Source: a virus (Duplodnaviria > Heunggongvirae > Uroviricota > Caudoviricetes). From it: a stretch of 28,449 nt of DNA. The notes beneath the pieces are model-generated. The model searched no databases, was not told where the DNA came from, and saw nothing but the letters and a program-made list of their open reading frames with translations. Where the stretch lies: IMG/VR virus record IMGVR_UViG_3300030379_000406. The stretch is one strand, 5' to 3'. A program made the position numbers and the translations under genes. Positions 6,610 through 26,264 of this stretch are shown here, one piece after another. Numbering within the stretch: the stretch's first letter is position 1; the number at the start of each line of letters is the position of its first letter.

Positions 6610-6879
6610 ATACAGCGAACTCCATTGGTTTAGTTGGATATTTACTGTGCTGGACAAAAACGGTTTGCGGGGAAATCTTAGTTAAGTAGAATGACTGCGG
6701 GTGCTTGAGGCTATCTGCCTCGGGCATGGACACCAACGGCAGATAGAGAAAAGCCCCAGTTAACATTACGCGTCCTGCAAGACGCTTAACATTAATCTGA
6801 GGCCAATTTCATGCTAGACACATGTAGGTTAGCCTCTTACGTGCCGAAAGGCACGGAGAAGCAGGCTATTGTTAACACC

Positions 6880-13576: not shown

Positions 13577-13876
13577 AAAAATTCCTTAATACTGATAACT
13601 TGGCGCACTATACACACGTTCCTGAAGAAAGCTATAGTTTTTTGATGGGGTTGAAGATGGCTGGATGTCTAAAATAAACATTGCTTCATATGTTCAACTA
13701 TGCGTTAATGATTGCGTCGGTTTGAAGAACAGACGATATACGAAGTAGTTTACTAAAGCAGTTCTCATTTCAGGTGTTATTCACTTATTCCTTCTTTGAG
13801 TCTCTCCAATTAAGTACGAAGTCGTTTCTGTTATGCAAACCATTTATGCCGAAAGGCTCAAGTTAAGGAATGTAGA

Positions 13877-14092
13877 ATGTCAAATAAAATGACTGGTTTA
13901 GTAAAATGGTTTAACGCTGATAAAGGTTTCGGCTTTATTTCTCCTGTTGATGGTAGTAAAGATGTGTTTGTGCATTTTTCTGCGATTCAGAATGATAATT
14001 ATCGAACCTTATTTGAAGGTCAAAAGGTTACCTTCTCTATAGAGAGTGGTGCTAAAGGTCCTGCAGCAGCAAATGTCATCATTACTGATTAA
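13877..14092 (+). CDS. cspB: Cold-shock protein CspB
   Basis: 71 aa ([71 protein letters not shown]); long 5' UTR typical of csp genes. Confidence 0.95.
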
Positions 14093-14374
14093 AATTCATC
14101 GCTCGTCTGTATACGATAACGAAGAAGGCTGATGCCTGAGTAGAGATACGGACAGAGTAGTGAATATTGGATCTCTTTAATAAAAAGTAAGGAGGTCCAA
14201 TACATGAAACAATGGCTAGCATATTTGGCAAAATCTTAATCAGGAAAAGTATGCTAACCATTGTGGTGAAGTGCAGGTTTGCTGCATGAATAGTTTTACA
14301 GCAGAAGCTAACTGCTGGCATGGCAAAACAAAGTGCGTAAGTGGATGACTCCCACAAAAAGCACCACAATCTCA

Positions 14375-16401: not shown

Positions 16402-16762
16402 GGTAATATTAAATCGGAACATTTACATCGCGGAATGTAAAATTTAAATAAAAAGGACTCTTCCATGAGCCAAAATTCCTGAAATCTTAAGGGTAAGATA
16501 AAAGGTCTTAATCAGAATGACACGCTTTATTAATAAATAAAGCTATTCTTTCATTGCTGTGTTTTTCTTTACAAAAGTAATCCTTGCTATGGGTGGTTAA
16601 TCATGCGTTAATGGTGTTCTGGTTTGTTACAAATTTATCTGAAGCAGTCATTGTTATAATTTTATTATTTGTACCTCTTGAGATTTCCTTGTTGGTTTTT
16701 CTCTCTGATATTTTTTTCGGACCATTCTGCCCAAGGGCTAATTTCTTCAAAAGGTAATAATT

Positions 16763-16975
16763 ATGTCTAACAAAATGACTGGTTTAGTGAAATGGTTTAA
16801 CCCTGAAAAAGGTTTTGGTTTCATCACGCCGAAAGATGGCAGCAAAGATGTGTTTGTCCATTTCTCAGCAATTCAGAGCAACGATTTCAAAACATTAACT
16901 GAGAATCAGGAAGTTGAATTTGGTATTGAGAACGGACCTAAAGGTCCTGCCGCTGTTCATGTAGTGGCGCTTTGA
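16763..16975 (+). CDS. cspI: Cold-shock protein CspI
   Basis: 70 aa ([70 protein letters not shown]). Confidence 0.95.
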
Positions 16976-17645
16976 GGTAGACAATATTACAAACCATATT
17001 CACTTTAGATGCCCGTGTTGTCATGGTTCCCAGTATAGAACATCATCTTTTGATGTTTCTGACATGAATCCTTTCGGGGCAAAATGTATCTTTTGTAAAT
17101 CAATGATGATTACATTTGATAATATTTCACAATACTTAAATGCCAGCCGTCTGTCGTTGGATTTAAAAAAGTGAAAATGAAGGCTCCTTCGGGAGCTTTT
17201 TTGCTTGGTGTCTATTCGATGGATACTCACATACTACGGTAACATCATGAAAAAAATCATAGTTTTTTTTAACTCTGAACCAGCAGTGGTAGTGCCAGCG
17301 ATGACTGGAGTTAACACCATCATGCGTGAATATCCAAATGGCGAAAAAACACACCTTACTGTAATGGCCGCAGGGTTTCCATCTCTGACCGGAGATCATA
17401 AAGTCATTTATGTAGCCGCGGATCGACATGTTACTTCAGAAGAAATTCTGGAAGCAGCAATAAGGCTCTTGAGTTGATTTGATGCTATTGCATTGATAAT
17501 TCAGGAAAATTCTCTTTGTCTGTTTGTGTAAAATTTAGACTATCGTATGTTGATTATTGCGATGTTTCATCTTATCTTTTACACGTTTGCACCATATAAT
17601 CGACTTACTGTGTAACTGGAAAGTCATAACAGACTAAAAGAGGAA

Positions 17646-19063: not shown

Positions 19064-19198
19064 ATGGAAGTCAACAAAAAGCAGCTGGCTGACATTTTCG
19101 GTGCGAGTATCCGTACCATTCAGAACTGGCAGGAACAGGGAATGCCCGTTCTGCGAGGCGGTGGCAAGGGTAATGAGGTGCTTTATGACTCTGCGTGA
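19064..19198 (+). pseudogene. nohQ: Terminase small subunit Nu1, N-terminal 44 codons only
   Basis: [44 protein letters not shown] then TGA at the deletion junction; matches the lambda Nu1 N-terminus by recall. Confidence 0.85.
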
Positions 19199-20871
19199 GT
19201 ATCCGTGAGAACGACGACGGCACGTATGCCATCACTGCCGTGCAGCATGTACCGGAGAAAGAGGCCATCGTGGATAACGGGGCGCACTTTGACGGCGACC
19301 AGAGCGGCACGGTGAATGGTGTCACGCCGCCAGCGGTGCAGCACCTGACTGCCGAAGTCACCGCAGACAGCGGGGAGTATCAGGTGCTGGCACGCTGGGA
19401 TACGCCGAAGGTGGTGAAGGGCGTGAGCTTTATGCTTCGCCTGACCGTGGTAGCGGATGACGGCAGTGAGCGGCTGGTCAGCACGGCCCGGACGACGGAA
19501 ACCACATACCGCTTCACGCAACTGGCGCTGGGGCGTTACATGCTGACGGTCCGGGCGGTAAATGCGTGGGGGCTGCAGGGCGATCCGGCATCGGTATCGT
19601 TCCGGATTGCCGCACCGGCAGCGCCGTCTCGGATTGAGCTGACACCGGGCTATTTTCAGATAACCGCCACGCCACATCTTGCGGTTTATGACCCGACGGT
19701 ACAGTTTGAGTTCTGGTTCTCGGAAAAACGGATTGCGGATATCAGGCAGGTTGAAACCACAGCCCGCTATCTTGGCACGGCGCTGTACTGGATAGCTGCC
19801 AGTATCAATATCAGGCCGGGCCATGATTATTATTTTTACGTTCGCAGTGTGAACACCGTTGGCAAATCGGCATTCGTGGAGGCTGTTGGTCGGGCGAGCG
19901 ATGATGCGGAAGGTTACCTGGATTTTTTCAAAGGCCAGATAACCGAATCCCATCTTGGCAAGGAGCTGCTGGAAAAAGTCGAGCTGACGGAGGATAACGC
20001 CAGCAAACTGGAGGAGTTTTCGAAAGAGTGGAAGGACGCCAGTGATAAGTGGAATGCCATGTGGGGCGTCAAAATTGAGCAGACCAAAGACGGCAAACAT
20101 TATGTCGCGGGTATTGGCCTCAGCATGGAGGACACGGAGGAAGGCAAACTGAGCCAGTTCCTGGTTGCCGCTAACCGTATCGCGTTTATTGATCCGTCTA
20201 ATGGCAACACAAGACCAATGTTTGTTGGTCAGGGCGATCAGATATTCATGAACGACGTGTTCCTGAAACGCCTGACGGCTCCGACCATTACCAGCGGCGG
20301 TAATCCTCCGGCATTTTCCCTGACACCGGATGGGCGGCTGACGGCGAAAAATGCCGATATCAGCGGTAACGTGAATGCGAACTCCGGGACGCTCAACAAC
20401 GTCACGATTAACGAGAACTGTCGGGTTCTGGGAAAACTGTCCGCGAACCAGATTGAAGGCGATCTCGTTAAAACAGTGGGCAAAGCTTTCCCCCGGGACT
20501 CCCGTGCACCGGAACGGTGGCCATCAGGGACCATTACCGTCAGGGTTTATGACGATCAGCCGTTTGACCGGCAGATTGTTATTCCTGCGGTGGCATTCAG
20601 CGGCGCTAAACATGAGAGAGAGCATACTGATATTTACTCCTCATGCCGTCTGATAGTGCGGAAAAACGGTGCTGAAATTTATAACCGTACCGCGCTGGAT
20701 AATACGCTGATTTACAGTGGCGTTATTGATATGCCTGCCGGTCACGGTCACATGACGCTGGAGTTTTCGGTGTCAGCATGGCTGGTAAATGACTGGTATC
20801 CCACAGCAAGTATCAGCGATTTGCTGGTTGTGGTGATGAAGAAAGCCACCGCAGGCATCAGTATCAGCTGA
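19195..20871 (+). pseudogene. J: Tail tip protein J, C-terminal ~558 aa fragment
   Basis: Translation ([33 protein letters not shown]...) is co-linear with the C-terminal half of lambda J as I recall it; the N-terminal half is absent; GTG at 19195 is the first possible start and lies in a different frame from nu1'. Confidence 0.85.
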
Positions 20872-20938: not shown

Positions 20939-21538
20939 ATGCGTAAAGTTTGTGCAGCCATTTTGTCCGCAGCCATTTGTCTGGCCGTATCCGGTGCGCC
21001 TGCATGGGCGTCTGAACATCAGTCCACGCTGAGCGCGGGGTATCTTCATGCCTCGACGAACGTCCCCGGCAGTGATGATCTGAACGGGATTAACGTGAAA
21101 TACCGTTATGAGTTTACGGACACACTGGGGCTGGTGACGTCATTCAGCTATGCAGGAGACAAGAATCGCCAGCTGACCCGTTACAGCGATACCCGCTGGC
21201 ATGAAGATTCCGTTCGTAACCGCTGGTTCAGCGTAATGGCGGGGCCGTCTGTGCGCGTGAATGAATGGTTCAGCGCGTATGCGATGGCGGGTGTAGCTTA
21301 CAGCCGTGTGTCGACTTTCTCCGGGGATTATCTTCGCGTAACTGACAACAAGGGGAAAAAGCACGATGTGCTGACCGGAAGTGATGACGGTCGCCACAGC
21401 AACACGTCTCTGGCGTGGGGGGCTGGCGTGCAGTTTAACCCGACCGAATCCGTGGCCATTGATATTGCTTATGAAGGCTCCGGCAGTGGTGACTGGCGCA
21501 CTGACGGTTTCATCGTGGGTGTCGGTTATAAATTCTGA
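20939..21538 (+). CDS. lom: Lom outer-membrane protein (Ail/Lom family)
   Basis: 199 aa with signal peptide (MRKVCAAILSAAICLAVSGAPAWA) and beta-barrel-like alternating pattern ending in a C-terminal aromatic (GVGYKF). Confidence 0.9.
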   Translation: MRKVCAAILSAAICLAVSGAPAWASEHQSTLSAGYLHASTNVPGSDDLNGINVKYRYEFTDTLGLVTSFSYAGDKNRQLTRYSDTRWHEDSVRNRWFSVMAGPSVRVNEWFSAYAMAGVAYSRVSTFSGDYLRVTDNKGKKHDVLTGSDDGRHSNTSLAWGAGVQFNPTESVAIDIAYEGSGSGDWRTDGFIVGVGYKF

Positions 21539-21564: not shown

Positions 21565-21592
21565 AGCCCGCCGGTTCAGGCGGGCTTTTTTG
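21565..21592 (+). terminator. Rho-independent terminator after lom
   Basis: AGCCCGCC-GGTTCA-GGCGGGCT followed by TTTTTTG. Confidence 0.65.
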
Positions 21593-21596
21593 TGGG

Positions 21597-24500
21597 GTGA
21601 ATATGGCAGTAAAGATTTCAGGTGTACTGAAAGACGGCACAGGAAAACCGGTACAGAACTGCACAATCCAGCTGAAAGCAAAACGTAACAGCACCACGGT
21701 GGTGGTGAACACGCTGGCCTCAGAAAATCCGGATGAAGCCGGGCGTTACAGCATGGACGTTGAGTACGGGCAGTACAGCGTTATTCTGTTGGTGGAGGGA
21801 TTCCCGCCGTCACATGCCGGGACCATCACCGTGTATGAAGATTCCCGACCCGGTACGCTGAATGATTTTCTCGGTGCCATGACGGAGGATGATGCCCGTC
21901 CTGAGGCACTGCGCCGTTTTGAACTGATGGTGGAAGAGGTGGCGCGTAACGCGTCCGCGGTGGCACAGAACACGGCAGCCGCGAAGAAGTCAGCCAGCGA
22001 TGCCAGCACATCAGCCCGTGAGGCGGCAACCCATGCGACTGATGCTGCAGGCTCAGCACGCGCAGCCAGCACGTCAGCCGGACAGGCCGCGTCGTCGGCT
22101 CAGTCAGCATCTTCCAGCGCAGGAACGGCATCAACAAAGGCCAGTGAAGCATCGAAAAGTGCTGCTGCTGCAGAGTCCTCAAAAAGCGCGGCAGCTACCA
22201 GTGCCGCTGCGGCGAAAACGTCAGAAACGAATGCGGCAGCGTCACAACAATCAGCAGCCACTTCTGCATCCGCCGCGACCACGAAGGCGTCAGAAGCAGC
22301 CACCTCAGCCCGGGATGCGGCGGCCTCAAAAGAGGCAGCGAAATCATCAGAAACGAACGCATCATCAAGCGCCAGTAGTGCCGCTTCCTCGGCAACGGCG
22401 GCAGGCAATTCCGCGAAGGCGGCAAAGACGTCTGAGACAAACGCCAGGTCTTCTGAAACGGCAGCGGGACAGAGCGCCTCGGCTGCGGCAGGCTCAAAAA
22501 CAGCGGCTGCGTCGTCTGCCAGTGCCGCGTCAACAAGTGCCGGGCAGGCCTCAGCCAGTGCCACCGCCGCCGGAAAATCGGCAGAAAGTGCCGCATCGTC
22601 TGCTTCAACAGCCACAACGAAGGCTGGCGAAGCCACTGAACAGGCCAGCGCAGCAGCGAGGTCTGCTTCCGCAGCGAAGACATCCGAGACGAACGCGAAA
22701 GCGTCGGAAACCAGCGCAGAATCCTCAAAAACGGCTGCCGCATCGTCAGCCAGTTCGGCGGCGTCATCGGCATCATCTGCGTCTGCTTCAAAAGATGAGG
22801 CGACCAGACAAGCGTCAGCAGCGAAGGGCAGCGCCACGACGGCATCCACGAAGGCGACAGAGGCTGCTGGCAGTGCGACGGCGGCAGCACAGAGCAAAAG
22901 TACGGCAGAATCCGCGGCAACGCGCGCCGAGACAGCGGCAAAACGGGCAGAGGATATTGCATCCGCCGTGGCGCTTGAGGATGCAAGTACGACGAAAAAG
23001 GGGATAGTACAGCTCAGCAGTGCGACCAACAGTACGTCTGAAACGCTGGCGGCAACGCCAAAGGCAGTAAAATCAGCCTATGACAATGCAGAGAAACGTC
23101 TGCAGAAAGACCAGAACGGCGCTGATATACCCGATAAGGGACGCTTCCTGAACAACATTAACGCGGTCAGTAAAACAGACTTTGCTGATAAGCGTGGTAT
23201 GCGTTATGTGCGGGTTAACGCTCCTGCAGGTGCAACATCTGGAAAATATTACCCTGTTGTTGTTATGCGTTCTGCTGGCTCAGTAAGCGAACTGGCATCA
23301 AGGGTCATTATCACCACGGCAACGCGAACCGCAGGCGATCCGATGAATAACTGCGAGTTTAACGGATTTGTTATGCCTGGTGGCTGGACTGACAGGGGGC
23401 GTTATGCTTATGGAATGTTCTGGCAATATCAAAACAATGAACGAGCCATCCACTCAATAATGATGAGTAATAAGGGCGATGATTTGCGCTCTGTGTTCTA
23501 TGTTGATGGCGCTGCTTTCCCTGTTTTTGCGTTTATCGAAGATGGCCTGTCAATATCCGCACCTGGTGCTGATCTCGTTGTTAATGATACGACCTATAAG
23601 TTTGGGGCAACAAATCCGGCGACTGAATGTATCGCGGCGGACGTTATCCTTGATTTTAAGAGTGGGCGTGGTTTTTATGAGTCTCATTCGTTAATCGTTA
23701 ACGATAACTTGTCGTGCAAAAAACTTTTTGCCACAGACGAAATTGTAGCGCGTGGTGGTAATCAGATTCGAATGATAGGTGGGGAGTATGGGGCATTATG
23801 GCGTAATGATGGCGCTAAAACTTACCTGCTGCTTACCAATCAAGGTGATGTTTATGGTGGCTGGAATACATTAAGACCGTTTGCTATTGATAACGCAACC
23901 GGCGAACTGGTTATTGGAACCAAACTGTCCGCAAGTCTGAACGGTAATGCATTAACAGCAACAAAGCTGCAAACGCCAAGACTGGTTTCTGGTGTTGAGT
24001 TTGATGGTTCCAAAGATATTACTTTAACCGCCGCGCATGTGGCTGCTTTTGCCAGAAGGGCAACGGATACATATGCCGATGCGGATGGTGGCGTTCCCTG
24101 GAATGCCGAATCAGGCGCTTACAATGTCACCCGCTCTGGCGACAGCTATATTCTGGTTAACTTCTATACCGGAGTCGGAAGTTGCCGGACCCTGCAGATG
24201 AAGGCGCATTACAGAAATGGTGGTCTGTTCTACCGTTCTTCAAGAGATGGCTATGGTTTTGAGGAAGACTGGGCAGAAGTTTATACCTCGAAAAATCTTC
24301 CACCAGAAAGCTACCCAGTCGGCGCACCAATCCCGTGGCCATCAGATACCGTTCCGTCTGGTTATGCCCTGATGCAGGGGCAGACTTTTGACAAATCTGC
24401 CTACCCGAAACTTGCTGCCGCTTATCCGTCAGGCGTGATCCCTGATTTGCGTGGCTGGACGATTAAGGGCAAGCCCGCCAGTGGTCGTGCCGTATTGTCT

Positions 24501-25001
24501 CAGGAACAGGATGGCATTAAATCGCATACCCACAGCGCCAGCGCATCCAGTACGGATTTGGGGACGAAAACCACATCGTCGTTTGATTACGGCACTAAAT
24601 CCACGAATAACACTGGTGCGCATACCCATAGTTTAAGTGGCAGCACGAATGCAGCTGGTAATCACAGCCATAGAGATGGCCGTCGATTTAACCCCAGTGT
24701 TCTTAAAGATACTTATCAATATGGTTATACAAGCTCAGGTCAAAATACCTGGGGTGTACAAGGCTCAGTAGGTATGTCTACGGGGTGGTTAGCGAATACC
24801 AGTACAGATGGTAATCATAGCCATTCACTGTCCGGCACAGCAGCATCTGCAGGTGCACACGCGCATACTGTCGGTATTGGTGCTCATACGCACTCCGTTG
24901 CGATTGGTTCACATGGACACACCATCACCGTTAACGCTGCTGGTAACGCGGAAAACACCGTCAAAAACATCGCATTTAACTATATTGTGAGGCTTGCATA
25001 A
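21597..25001 (+). CDS. stf: Side tail fiber protein Stf
   Basis: 1134 aa; N-terminus [26 protein letters not shown] (lambda Stf-like; true start may be the Met at 21603); long Ala/Ser/Thr-rich repeat tract; C-terminal region with repeated HxH motifs ([45 protein letters not shown]). Confidence 0.9.
21950..22960 (+). repeat. Low-complexity GC-rich coding repeat (Ala/Ser/Thr-rich units) inside stf
   Basis: Reiterated SASAA/TSETNA-type peptide units; the same tract produces three long spurious ORFs in other frames and on the minus strand. Confidence 0.6.
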
Positions 25002-25576
25002 TGGCATTCAGAATGAGTGAACAACCACGGACCATAAAAATTTATAATCTGCTGGCCGGAACTAATGAATTTATTGGTGAAGGTGACGCATATATTCCGC
25101 CTCATACAGGTCTGCCAGCAAACAGTACCGATATTGCACCACCAGATATTCCTGCTGGCTTTGTGGCTGTTTTCAACAGTGATAAGGCATCGTGGCATCT
25201 CGATGAAGACCATCGGGGTAAAACGGTTTATGACGTAGCGTCAGGGGACGCGTTATTTATTTCTGAACTCGGTCCGTTACCGGAAAATGTTACCTGGTTA
25301 TCGCCGGAAGGGGAGTTTCAGAAGTGGAACGGCACAGCCTGGGTGAAAGATGCAGAAGCAGAAAAACTGTTCCGGATCCGAGAGGCGGAAGAAACAAAAA
25401 ACAGCCTGATGCAGGTAGCCAGTGAGCATATTGCGCCACTTCAGGATGCTGTAGATCTGGAAATCGCAACGGAGGAAGAAACCTCATTGCTGGAAGCCTG
25501 GAAAAAGTATCGGGTGTTGCTGAACCGTGTTGATACGTCAACTGCACAGGATATTGAATGGCCAGCACTGCCGTAG
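25001..25576 (+). CDS. tfa: Tail fiber assembly protein Tfa
   Basis: 191 aa ([51 protein letters not shown]...); start overlaps the stf stop (TAATG). Confidence 0.9.
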
Positions 25577-25673: not shown

Positions 25674-26264
25674 TTATATGTCAGGTGTCTGAAGTTTTGC
25701 TTTGGCTCTTAAAATGGTTTGCCGCGAGGTTTTGAATTCCCGGGCAATGGCACTTATACTTACACCTGACTTAATTCGTTCGAATACCACCTGTTTCTGT
25801 TCTTCATTTAACACAGGTGGTCGACCAAAACGTTTCCCTGCGCCGCGGGCTCTTACTATCCCGGAATGAGTGCGTTCAAGTAAAAGGTCTCGTTCAAATT
25901 CAGCGACTGCTGAAATTACGTGCATCATCATTTTTCCTGTTGGACTGGTCAGGTCAATGCCCCCCAATGCTAAGCAATGCACTCTGATACCTGTTTCGGT
26001 CAGTTGTTCCACTGTTTTCCTGATATCCATTGCATTACAACCAAGGCGATCCAGTTTTGTCACAATCAATTGATCACCACATTTCAGGCGAGCAAGCAAC
26101 CGGTTAAAACCAGGACGCTCACTGGTTGCTGCTGAGCCGCTAATGTGTTCTTCGATTATTTGCTGAGGTTTGATTTTAAAACCTGCACTTTCGATTTCCC
26201 GGCGTTGATTTTCGGTGGTCTGATCCAGCGTTGATATCCGACAGTAAGCAAAAATTCGAGACAT
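25674..26264 (-). CDS. pin: Pin/Gin/Hin-family serine DNA invertase
   Basis: 196 aa; N-terminal catalytic region [15 protein letters not shown] (active-site Ser in the RxST context) and C-terminal HTH ([20 protein letters not shown]). Confidence 0.9.

What the first reader, a model, noticed from the sequence alone, without database searches (positions are those of the whole stretch)
21597..25001. Side tail fiber with long Ala/Ser repeat tract and clustered HxH motifs at the C-terminus
The 1134-aa Stf has about 330 aa of low-complexity Ala/Ser/Thr repeats encoded by reiterated GC-rich DNA, a likely substrate for slipped recombination and length variation. The C-terminal 150 aa carry at least six HxH motifs in a Gly/Ser-rich context, comparable to the metal-coordinating HxH repeats reported in T4-type fibre tips. 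Fibre and Tfa are intact although the phage is defective.
Basis: partly seen in the sequence, partly recalled or inferred. Interest (0 to 1): 0.45.

Follow-up and report, generated by a model that had tools for sequence, protein, structure and literature searches.

The report
Ordinary lambda-type prophage side tail fibre
This is a well-known kind of phage side tail fibre (lambda Stf / E. coli StfR type) sitting in a decayed Qin-type prophage; its Ala/Ser tract is a fixed-length coiled-coil shaft rather than a slippery repeat, and its HxH motifs are the known metal-binding sites of the phage T4 fibre tip.

Summary
The ORF is real. It most likely starts at ATG 21603, giving 1132 aa. It is the side tail fibre gene of a Qin-type cryptic prophage of E. 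coli. It is at least 98% identical to K-12 StfR outside one 48-aa tip cassette, and 1126/1132 identical to the fibre of the complete phage Kati.

The Ala/Ser/Thr tract (aa about 114-466) is a strict heptad array, S-A-x-x-A-x-x, of about 49 heptads with no register break. It corresponds to the proximal trimeric coiled coil described for Ur-lambda Stf.

At DNA level the tract is not reiterated. The longest exact repeat is 12 nt, which is what codon shuffles give, and Tandem Repeats Finder finds nothing in the tract.

Its length is the same in nearly all relatives sampled at 90-100% nucleotide identity, and dN/dS is about 0.1. Lambda differs by exactly 15 heptads. The slippage and length-variation idea is therefore not supported.

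All seven HxH motifs align one-to-one with the iron-binding histidines of the T4 gp37 tip (PDB 2XGF, E 1e-84). The variable element is the tip loop between HxH 3 and HxH 4.

Verdict: already known, low interest.

The parts
21603..25001 (+). stf: side tail fibre gene. 1132 aa from ATG 21603; the mechanical ORF starts at GTG 21597 and gives 1134 aa. Residue numbers in this report use the 1134-aa numbering.
   Evidence: ORF. RefSeq start and product name. SD-like GGGGTGA before ATG 21603. Pfam phage_tail_N, Gp34_trimer and Collar. 99.5% identical to the fibre of the complete phage Kati.
21603..21884 (+). N-terminal collar/attachment domain (aa 3-96), which docks the fibre on the tail.
   Evidence: PF08400, E 1.6e-71. 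Matches PDB 9E7M chain Ta, the 94-aa Ur-lambda Stf N-domain, at E 2e-51. The role of 9E7M/9MGH is described in PMC12617516.
21927..22994 (+). Ala/Ser/Thr tract (aa 111-466): about 49 uninterrupted heptads S-A-x-x-A-x-x, read as the proximal trimeric coiled-coil shaft.
   Evidence: Lag-7 residue autocorrelation 0.405 against 0.213 +/- 0.019 in shuffles (z = 10); Ala occupies 36 and 47 of 53 rows at the two core positions. AlphaFold2 single chain is helical over aa 100-387 and 398-507. Lambda's equivalent region is described as a coiled coil. dN/dS about 0.10-0.12.
22923..23165 (+). Segment related to phage Mu tail fibre S (aa 443-523; '[26 protein letters not shown]' motif) at the end of the shaft.
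   Evidence: PDB 5YVQ/8JU3 match.
23589..23888 (+). T4 gp34-type trimerisation domain (aa 665-764).
   Evidence: PF21446, E 3.4e-27. PDB 4UXE/5NXF matches at aa 708-779.
24039..24323 (+). Second Mu S-like domain (aa 815-909).
   Evidence: PDB 8JU3 domain 3, E 2e-20.
24306..24998 (+). T4 gp37-type receptor-binding tip (aa 904-1134): collar, HxH needle and tip loop.
   Evidence: PDB 2XGF, E 1.3e-84. 71% identity overall and 81% outside the tip loop. Pfam Collar PF07484 at aa 909-956.
24525..24533 (+). HxH motif 1 (H977-T-H979), aligned with T4 gp37 H883/H885.
24621..24629 (+). HxH motif 2 (H1009/H1011), aligned with T4 gp37 H915/H917.
24663..24671 (+). HxH motif 3 (H1023/H1025), aligned with T4 gp37 H929/H931. 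Those two T4 residues are iron ligands and are essential in T4.
   Evidence: PMC6957217.
24672..24815 (+). Hypervariable receptor-contact tip cassette (aa 1026-1073, 48 aa) between HxH 3 and HxH 4.
   Evidence: It is the only region that differs from K-12 StfR, which has 36 aa there. Ten unrelated tip families of 32-53 aa occur among 55 related fibres. T4 residues 932-959, which contact the receptor, lie in the equivalent loop.
24816..24824 (+). HxH motif 4 (H1074/H1076), aligned with T4 gp37 H966/H968.
24858..24866 (+). HxH motif 5 (H1088/H1090), aligned with T4 gp37 H980/H982.
24885..24893 (+). HxH motif 6 (H1097/H1099), aligned with T4 gp37 H989/H991.
24912..24920 (+). HxH motif 7 (H1106/H1108), aligned with T4 gp37 H998/H1000.
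25001..25576 (+). tfa: tail fibre assembly chaperone, 191 aa. Its start overlaps the stf stop.
   Evidence: PF02413, E 3e-44. Its C-terminus matches Mu Tfa U, PDB 5YVQ_B. It stays at least 87% identical in most relatives whichever tip cassette the fibre carries.
21565..21586 (+). Terminator-like hairpin between lom and stf.
   Evidence: This is a consensus match only.
20939..21538 (+). lom (Ail/Lom outer-membrane protein): context gene, in the lambda order J-lom-stf-tfa.
   Evidence: PF06316, E 1e-122.
19195..20871 (+). C-terminal fragment of the central tail fibre J (context). It marks the deletion that made the prophage defective.
   Evidence: Pfam Ig_J, Phage_Tail_Tip and Ig_GpJ_C. RefSeq annotates it as 'incomplete, missing N-terminus', directly after a terminase fragment.
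25674..26264 (-). pinQ serine invertase (context). No local crossover sites were found.
   Evidence: PF00239 and HTH_7. No Gin/Hin/Pin-type site in the window.

Best explanation
The gene encodes a lambda Stf / StfR-type side tail fibre, retained intact with its chaperone Tfa in a Qin-type defective prophage of E. coli.

Inferred mechanism, by homology to Ur-lambda Stf and T4 gp37:
- Three chains form one fibre.
- The N-terminal domain (aa 3-96) joins the collar on the tail.
- The Ala/Ser/Thr tract is a continuous parallel coiled coil with Ala at both core positions (about 49-51 heptads). At 0.148 nm per residue it would be roughly 50-58 nm long, about 15 nm longer than lambda's. It acts as a rigid spacer of fixed length.
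- Mosaic Mu-S-like and T4-gp34-like modules follow.
- The last 231 aa form a gp37-type needle in which each of seven HxH motifs, from three chains, gives six His ligands to one metal ion (Fe2+ in T4), stapling the intertwined trimer together.
- The 48-aa loop between HxH 3 and HxH 4 forms the receptor-contacting tip and is the exchangeable specificity cassette.
- Tfa folds the conserved needle.

Shown here: the homologies, the heptad register, the absence of DNA repeats, the length invariance, purifying selection, and the cassette pattern. Inferred: trimer state, metal content, receptor.
For: Identity and context:
- Gene order is J'-lom-stf-tfa-pinQ within dicA...relBE...cspB/F/I...rrrQ, i.e. 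Qin.
- 1231 of 5426 complete E. coli genomes hold at least 80% of the gene.
- It is at least 98% identical to K-12 StfR except in the tip.
- It is 1126/1132 identical to the fibre of the complete phage Kati, which has a full J-lom-stf-tfa-invertase module.

N-domain: PF08400 and PDB 9E7M.

Shaft:
- Strict heptad register with z = 10.
- Spacings of the DNA repeats are almost all multiples of 21 nt.
- AlphaFold2 predicts helix.
- The Ur-lambda paper assigns residues 102-393 to a proximal coiled coil.
- Lambda differs by one clean 105-aa gap, which is 15 heptads.
- The rare indels seen in relatives are +4 and -3 aa, the stutter-type discontinuities that coiled coils tolerate (the tolerance itself is established coiled-coil knowledge, not tested here).
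- dN/dS is 0.10-0.12.

Needle:
- 2XGF at E 1e-84 with all 14 His aligned.
- Seven iron atoms lie along the T4 needle, and H929/H931 are essential there (PMC6957217; PMC11705849).

Cassette:
- Ten tip families sit on a conserved 7-HxH scaffold, combined with fibres of 942-1176 aa and a conserved Tfa.
Against: - The AlphaFold2 run was a single chain without an alignment (mean pLDDT 70.7, pTM 0.25) and folds back on itself, so it supports helicity only.
- An all-Ala core is unusual for a trimeric coiled coil.
- Metal identity is not known for this protein.
- In this prophage the fibre cannot be mounted on a virion of its own, so the function described is that of the gene's lineage, not necessarily a current function in this cell.
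Confidence: 0.93

Rival explanations
1. One reading: the Ala/Ser tract is a contingency-type repeat whose reiterated DNA undergoes slipped-strand or unequal recombination, producing frequent fibre-length variants.
For: - The protein is highly repetitive and the DNA is GC-rich.
- Lambda carries a version 15 heptads shorter.
- Rare +4 and -3 aa variants exist, as does a variant that switches to another heptad tract at about aa 283.
- So rearrangements inside the tract do happen on evolutionary time scales.
Against: - No tandem DNA repeats.
- The longest exact repeat is 12 nt, equal to the codon-shuffle expectation. It is well below the 20-30 bp generally needed for efficient RecA recombination in E. 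coli (established knowledge, not tested here).
- Tract length is identical in 115 of 119 homologues, in nearly all of 80 viral loci, in K-12 StfR, and in 46 of the 48 end-to-end matches of the evenly spaced E. coli sample, despite up to 10% nucleotide divergence.
- dN/dS is about 0.1.
Confidence: 0.03
2. The intact stf-tfa pair is kept in the defective prophage because it is useful now. One version: it is a donor cassette that superinfecting lambdoid phages pick up by recombination. Another: it is a host-expressed protein that masks receptors, as claimed for the e14 chimera StfE2.
For: - Lambda recombines with the Rac and Qin stf-tfa regions at about 2e-6 per phage (PMC3945230).
- PinQ-driven StfE2 production is reported to block T2 adsorption (PMC12529663).
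- The ORF is intact, and the tract is under purifying selection among relatives.
Against: - The purifying selection was measured across loci that include complete prophages, so it need not reflect selection in the defective context.
- About a fifth of the sampled relatives lack the normal C-terminus and may be truncated.
- No Pin crossover site is present in this window.
- Expression was not examined, and no promoter-like consensus match lies directly upstream of stf.
- Acting as a donor is a by-product and needs no selection in the host.
Confidence: 0.04

Closest known systems
E. coli K-12 StfR (Rac prophage, b1372, 1120 aa) and the StfQ/StfR family annotated by RefSeq as 'prophage tail fiber N-terminal domain-containing protein'
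   Same: - Same gene order: lom-stf-tfa-pin.
- At least 98% amino-acid identity in every 50-aa block except aa about 1001-1100.
- Same 361-aa tract length.
- Same seven HxH motifs.
   Different: - The tip cassette between HxH 3 and HxH 4 is 48 aa here and 36 aa in K-12, and the two are unrelated in sequence.
- The gene sits in a Qin-type rather than a Rac prophage.
- lom is intact here; in K-12 Rac it is interrupted by IS5.
Ur-lambda side tail fibre Stf (774 aa; PDB 9E7M/9MGH; PMC12617516)
   Same: - N-terminal collar domain about 95% identical.
- Same coiled-coil shaft sequence family and register.
- Same hinge motif ([25 protein letters not shown]).
- gp37-like HxH tip and a Tfa chaperone.
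   Different: - The shaft here is exactly 15 heptads (105 aa) longer.
- The distal part carries extra Mu-S-like and gp34-like modules.
Phage T4 long tail fibre distal half-fibre gp37, receptor-binding tip (PDB 2XGF)
   Same: - aa 904-1134 align end to end: collar domain, all seven HxH pairs and the C-terminal [11 protein letters not shown].
- 81% identity outside the tip loop.
- Both need a dedicated chaperone (gp38 for T4, Tfa here).
   Different: - The tip loop is 48 aa here and 32 aa in T4, and is not alignable.
- The rest of the protein is unrelated to gp37.
- The host element is a temperate siphovirus-type prophage, not a T-even myovirus.
Invertible tail-fibre cassettes (Mu G, P1 C, e14 P segments)
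   Same: - A Pin-family serine invertase lies next to stf-tfa.
- Parts of the fibre resemble Mu S, and Tfa resembles Mu U.
   Different: - No inverted crossover sites.
- No second, oppositely oriented fibre-end/tfa pair: only 97 nt lie between the tfa and pin stop codons.

Membership tests
Lambda Stf / StfR-type side tail fibre | N-terminal tail-attachment (collar) domain, PF08400 | tested here: met
   PF08400 at 239 bits, E 1.6e-71, aa 3-136. Matches the Ur-lambda Stf N-domain chain of 9E7M at E 2e-51.
Lambda Stf / StfR-type side tail fibre | Position in the late operon: after J and lom, and followed by an overlapping tfa | tested here: met
   J fragment, lom, stf and tfa in that order, with the tfa ATG overlapping the stf stop.
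Lambda Stf / StfR-type side tail fibre | Long proximal alpha-helical coiled-coil shaft | tested here: met
   About 49 heptads in unbroken register. Helical in AlphaFold2. Collinear with lambda's coiled-coil region. The trimeric state itself was not testable.
Lambda Stf / StfR-type side tail fibre | Assembles as trimers, four per virion, and speeds adsorption | not testable with these tools
   Needs virions. This prophage lacks head and tail genes.
T4 gp37-type receptor-binding tip | Sequence homology over the collar, needle and C-terminus of 2XGF | tested here: met
   E 1.3e-84; query aa 904-1134 against chain positions 27-242; 71% identity.
T4 gp37-type receptor-binding tip | Seven HxH pairs at the positions of the iron ligands | tested here: met
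   All 14 His align with T4 H883/885, 915/917, 929/931, 966/968, 980/982, 989/991 and 998/1000. Seven Fe atoms are reported in T4.
T4 gp37-type receptor-binding tip | Bound metal (Fe2+) and an intertwined homotrimer | not testable with these tools
   Only monomer prediction is available. Needs ICP-MS or X-ray fluorescence and SEC-MALS on purified protein.
T4 gp37-type receptor-binding tip | Dedicated folding chaperone encoded immediately downstream | tested here: met
   Tfa, PF02413 at E 3e-44. Conserved across tip variants.
Slipped-strand / contingency repeat locus | Tandem or long, highly identical direct DNA repeats | tested here: not met
   Tandem Repeats Finder gives one 19-nt hit only. 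Direct repeats are 60-85% identical. The longest exact repeat is 12 nt against 13.0 +/- 1.8 in synonymous-codon shuffles.
Slipped-strand / contingency repeat locus | Repeat-number polymorphism among close relatives | tested here: not met
   Tract length of 361 aa in 115 of 119 homologues and in nearly all viral loci. In the evenly spaced E. coli sample, 46 of the 48 end-to-end matches span exactly as many bases as the query.
Invertible tail-fibre segment (Mu G / P1 C / e14 P) | Pair of inverted crossover sites flanking the fibre C-terminus plus tfa | tested here: not met
   No match to the Gin/Hin core, the extended consensus, or the e14 Pin repeat TTGGTTTGGGAGAAGG at up to 3 mismatches. Only weak inverted repeats, 76-88% complementary.
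Invertible tail-fibre segment (Mu G / P1 C / e14 P) | Alternative fibre end and tfa in the opposite orientation | tested here: not met
   97 nt between the tfa stop (25576) and the pin stop (25674), with no ORFs in between.

The most novel reading that the evidence does not exclude
The shaft length may be quantised and actively held. An all-alanine-core coiled coil of exactly one length (361 aa anchor to anchor) persists across about 10% nucleotide divergence. The other length class seen among fibres of this tract type, lambda's, differs by exactly 15 heptads. This could mean the shaft works as a molecular ruler matched to tail-tip geometry, with only certain lengths functional. A related possibility is that intact stf-tfa in decayed Qin/Rac prophages is maintained as a specificity-cassette reservoir, or as a receptor-masking defence.
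Probability: 0.12. Interest if true: 0.35.

Novelty: already known. Interest (0 to 1): 0.1.

Why it matters
It matters little beyond correct annotation.

The useful outcome is a corrected reading. The 'low-complexity' Ala/Ser tract of StfR-type fibres is a constrained, fixed-length heptad coiled coil and not a hypervariable repeat. Host-range variation in these fibres lies in a 32-53-aa cassette framed by conserved HxH metal sites. That is relevant to people engineering lambda-type fibres, since it shows where to cut and what length to keep. The architecture, the T4 homology and the metal sites are all already published.

Tried and rejected
- Slippage substrate. Tested with Tandem Repeats Finder, the repeat finder, an exact-repeat search and a synonymous-codon shuffle control. 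Rejected.
- Length polymorphism. Tested in four samples: 120 protein homologues, 80 IMG/VR loci, one-genome-per-species contigs, and an evenly spaced sample of 4338 E. coli records. Rejected, apart from the discrete lambda class and rare +4/-3 variants. The first two samples are biased towards close relatives. The BLAST low-complexity filter hid the tract in the phage tblastn search, so lengths there had to be read from coordinates.
- Invertible-cassette idea, prompted by the neighbouring pinQ. Three site searches and an inverted-repeat scan found nothing. Rejected.
- Co-variation of Tfa with the tip cassette. Not seen: Tfa stays at least 87% identical in most cases.
- The alternative-frame and antisense ORFs of 263-335 aa across the tract were considered and dismissed as by-products of GC-rich Ala/Ser codons.
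- The Bartual 2010 paper on the gp37 tip (PMC2996694) is not held. The seven-iron statement is taken from PMC6957217 and PMC11705849 instead.
- One literature search failed on its term format.
- A trimer prediction of the tip was not possible with the tools. A monomer prediction of the tip was judged uninformative and was not run.
Full report
**Observation.**
The window holds one uninterrupted ORF at 21597-25001 on the + strand, 1134 aa if read from the GTG. RefSeq annotation of a 99.9%-identical genome starts the gene 6 nt later. The solved lambda Stf N-domain also begins MAVKISG, and ATG 21603 is preceded by GGGGTGA. The real product is therefore most likely 1132 aa. Residue numbers below use the 1134-aa numbering.

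The Ala/Ser/Thr-rich tract is real. Thirty-residue windows with at least 60% A+S+T run from aa 114 to 466. Over aa 111-480 the composition is 36.5% Ala, 23.8% Ser and 11.6% Thr.

Seven HxH motifs lie at aa 977, 1009, 1023, 1074, 1088, 1097 and 1106. They account for all 14 histidines of the last 234 residues. None of 20,000 residue shuffles reached seven; the mean was 0.77 and the maximum 5.

**Context.**
The nearest complete genome shows the window is a Qin-type cryptic prophage: dicA/dicC, relBE, hokD, cspB/F/I, essD-rrrQ-rzpQ and ydfO. These are followed by a small-terminase fragment fused directly to a C-terminal J fragment, then lom, stf, tfaQ, pinQ and ydfK.

Pfam confirms J C-terminal domains, Ail/Lom, Caudo_TAP for Tfa, and a resolvase-type invertase. 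All head and tail-shaft genes are missing.

**What the tract is.**
Written in rows of seven, aa 118-460 form about 49 consecutive heptads, S-A-x-x-A-x-x, without a single register shift. Ser occupies position 1 in 38 of 53 rows. Ala occupies position 2 in 36 of 53 rows and position 5 in 47 of 53 rows.

Residue identity at lag 7 is 0.405 against 0.213 +/- 0.019 in shuffles, z = 10. The short DNA repeats that can be found are almost all spaced by multiples of 21 nt.

Two small residues spaced 3 and 4 apart are the a and d positions of a coiled coil. A single-chain AlphaFold2 model is helical over aa 100-387 and 398-507. Its mean pLDDT is 70.7 and pTM 0.25, and the chain folds back on itself, as a lone strand of a coiled coil would. 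It supports helicity only.

The cryo-EM/cryo-ET study of Ur-lambda describes Stf as follows: an N-terminal collar domain (1-91), a linker, a proximal coiled coil (102-393), a hinge, and a distal part with a T4 gp37-like receptor-binding domain (PMC12617516).

The N-domain here matches that structure's chain 9E7M_Ta at E 2e-51. The tract aligns collinearly with lambda's coiled coil. The tract is therefore the known proximal shaft.

**Is it a slippage substrate?**
No.
- Tandem Repeats Finder reports only a 19-nt, 2-copy hit.
- Direct-repeat families are 15-37 nt long and 60-85% identical.
- The longest exact direct repeat in the 1068-nt tract is 12 nt. The same protein with its synonymous codons reshuffled gives 13.0 +/- 1.8 nt.

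The repetition lies in the protein, while the DNA is diversified at wobble positions.

**Is its length variable?**
It is almost invariant. The distance from the RRFELM anchor to the KKGIVQL anchor was measured in several samples.
- It is 361 aa in 115 of 119 close protein homologues.
- It is 361 aa in nearly all of 80 viral-contig loci, although their fibres range from 944 to 1178 aa overall. The length variation lies downstream of the tract.
- It is 361 aa in K-12 StfR.
- In an evenly spaced sample of 4338 E. coli records that match the tract DNA, 48 of the 60 listed rows match it end to end, at 89.7-99.9% identity. In 46 of those 48 the match spans exactly as many bases as the query; one is 3 nt shorter and one 1 nt longer.

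The exceptions are informative.
- Lambda has one clean 105-aa gap, exactly 15 heptads.
- Two loci carry +4 and -3 aa, the stutter-type discontinuities that coiled coils tolerate (the tolerance is established knowledge, not tested here).
- Some alleles switch at about aa 283 to a different heptad tract with a different distal end.
- Phage 434 and Stx-phage fibres share the N-domain but carry a shorter acidic heptad region followed by collagen-like repeats.

Pairwise dN/dS in the tract is 0.10-0.12. The tract is a constrained structural element.

**What the HxH cluster is.**
Residues 904-1134 match the crystallised receptor-binding tip of T4 gp37 (PDB 2XGF) at E 1.3e-84. Identity is 71% overall and 81% outside the tip loop. 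All 14 histidines align with T4 H883/885, 915/917, 929/931, 966/968, 980/982, 989/991 and 998/1000.

In T4, seven iron atoms lie along the needle, each held by histidines from the three chains, and H929 and H931 are essential (PMC6957217; PMC11705849). The motifs here are therefore the homologous metal sites of a known trimeric fold. Metal content and trimer state of this particular protein are inferred, not shown.

**Where the variation actually is.**
Against K-12 StfR the protein is at least 98% identical in every 50-aa block except aa about 1001-1100. There, a 48-aa loop between HxH 3 and HxH 4 replaces an unrelated 36-aa loop. This accounts for the whole 12-aa length difference.

Among 55 related fibres, all of those ending in the canonical C-terminus have seven HxH motifs. 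They carry ten unrelated loop families of 32-53 aa, combined freely with fibres of 942-1176 aa. Tfa stays at least 87% identical in most cases.

In T4 the equivalent loop (residues about 932-959) contacts LPS and OmpC. The loop is therefore the exchangeable specificity cassette on a conserved metal-stapled scaffold.

The rest of the fibre is a mosaic.
- Mu S-like segments at aa 443-523 and 815-909.
- A T4 gp34-type trimerisation domain at aa 665-764.

**Is it functional?**
- The gp37-type tip occurs in 636 phage records.
- The complete 46-kb phage Kati carries a full J-lom-stf-tfa-invertase module. Its fibre is 1126/1132 identical to this one.
- Lambda is known to recombine with the stf-tfa regions of Rac and Qin at about 2e-6 (PMC3945230).

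**Neighbouring invertase.**
pinQ lies 97 nt beyond tfa. No Gin/Hin/Pin-type crossover site occurs anywhere in the window, and there is no alternative fibre end. The fibre here is therefore not an invertible cassette. A recent paper reports that PinQ acts in trans on the e14 P segment (PMC12529663).

**Verdict.**
The sequence features are real and non-random. They belong to a thoroughly described protein family, lambda Stf / StfR with a T4 gp37-type tip. The one mechanistic idea that would have been new, a slippery length-variable repeat, is contradicted by the data. Novelty: already known. Interest: low.

Noticed in passing
window 25344-25542 (+): A full-length Rfam IS009 match (RF02111, 226.7 bits; gathering score 117) lies entirely inside the tfa coding sequence. 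It may be a real sRNA overlapping tfa, or the family may have been built on tfaQ/tfaR sequence.
   Followed up: no
window 13716-14108 and 16618-17002 (+); 6699-6870 (+): Two cspA-type thermoregulator leaders, upstream of cspB and cspI, and a Sok antitoxin RNA beside hokD. All are typical Qin cargo.
   Followed up: no
window about 19064-19195: A small-terminase fragment abuts a C-terminal J fragment directly, with a GC step from 0.43 to 0.58. A single deletion appears to have removed all head and tail-shaft genes while sparing J'-lom-stf-tfa.
   Followed up: partly
window 25674-26264 (-): The pinQ invertase is intact, but no Gin/Hin/Pin crossover site exists anywhere in the 28 kb, so it has no local substrate. 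The literature reports that it inverts the e14 P segment in trans and thereby blocks T2 adsorption.
   Followed up: partly
L085-L101 (genome-contig hits): Stf N-domain hits in assemblies of Pseudomonas, Shewanella, Desulfosporosinus, Oceanobacillus, Bradyrhizobium and others. Several are contigs of about 48.4 kb at roughly 1x coverage, and they carry the frameshifted lambda PaPa orf401 form. They look like lambda control-DNA contamination of those assemblies.
   Followed up: partly
window 22000-23007 (+), 22100-23029 (-), 22195-22986 (-): Long alternative-frame and antisense ORFs (263-335 aa) lie across the tract. Their Arg/Pro/Gln-rich or Ala/Asp-rich translations mark them as by-products of the GC-rich Ala/Ser codons, not genes.
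   Followed up: partly
L120 and L119 (phage 434 and an Stx2c phage): Fibres with the same N-terminal collar domain carry a shorter acidic heptad region followed by a long collagen-like G-X-Y tract. One attachment domain therefore serves very different shafts.
   Followed up: no
window 20939-21538 (+): lom is intact here (199 aa). The Rac copy in K-12 is split by IS5.
   Followed up: no
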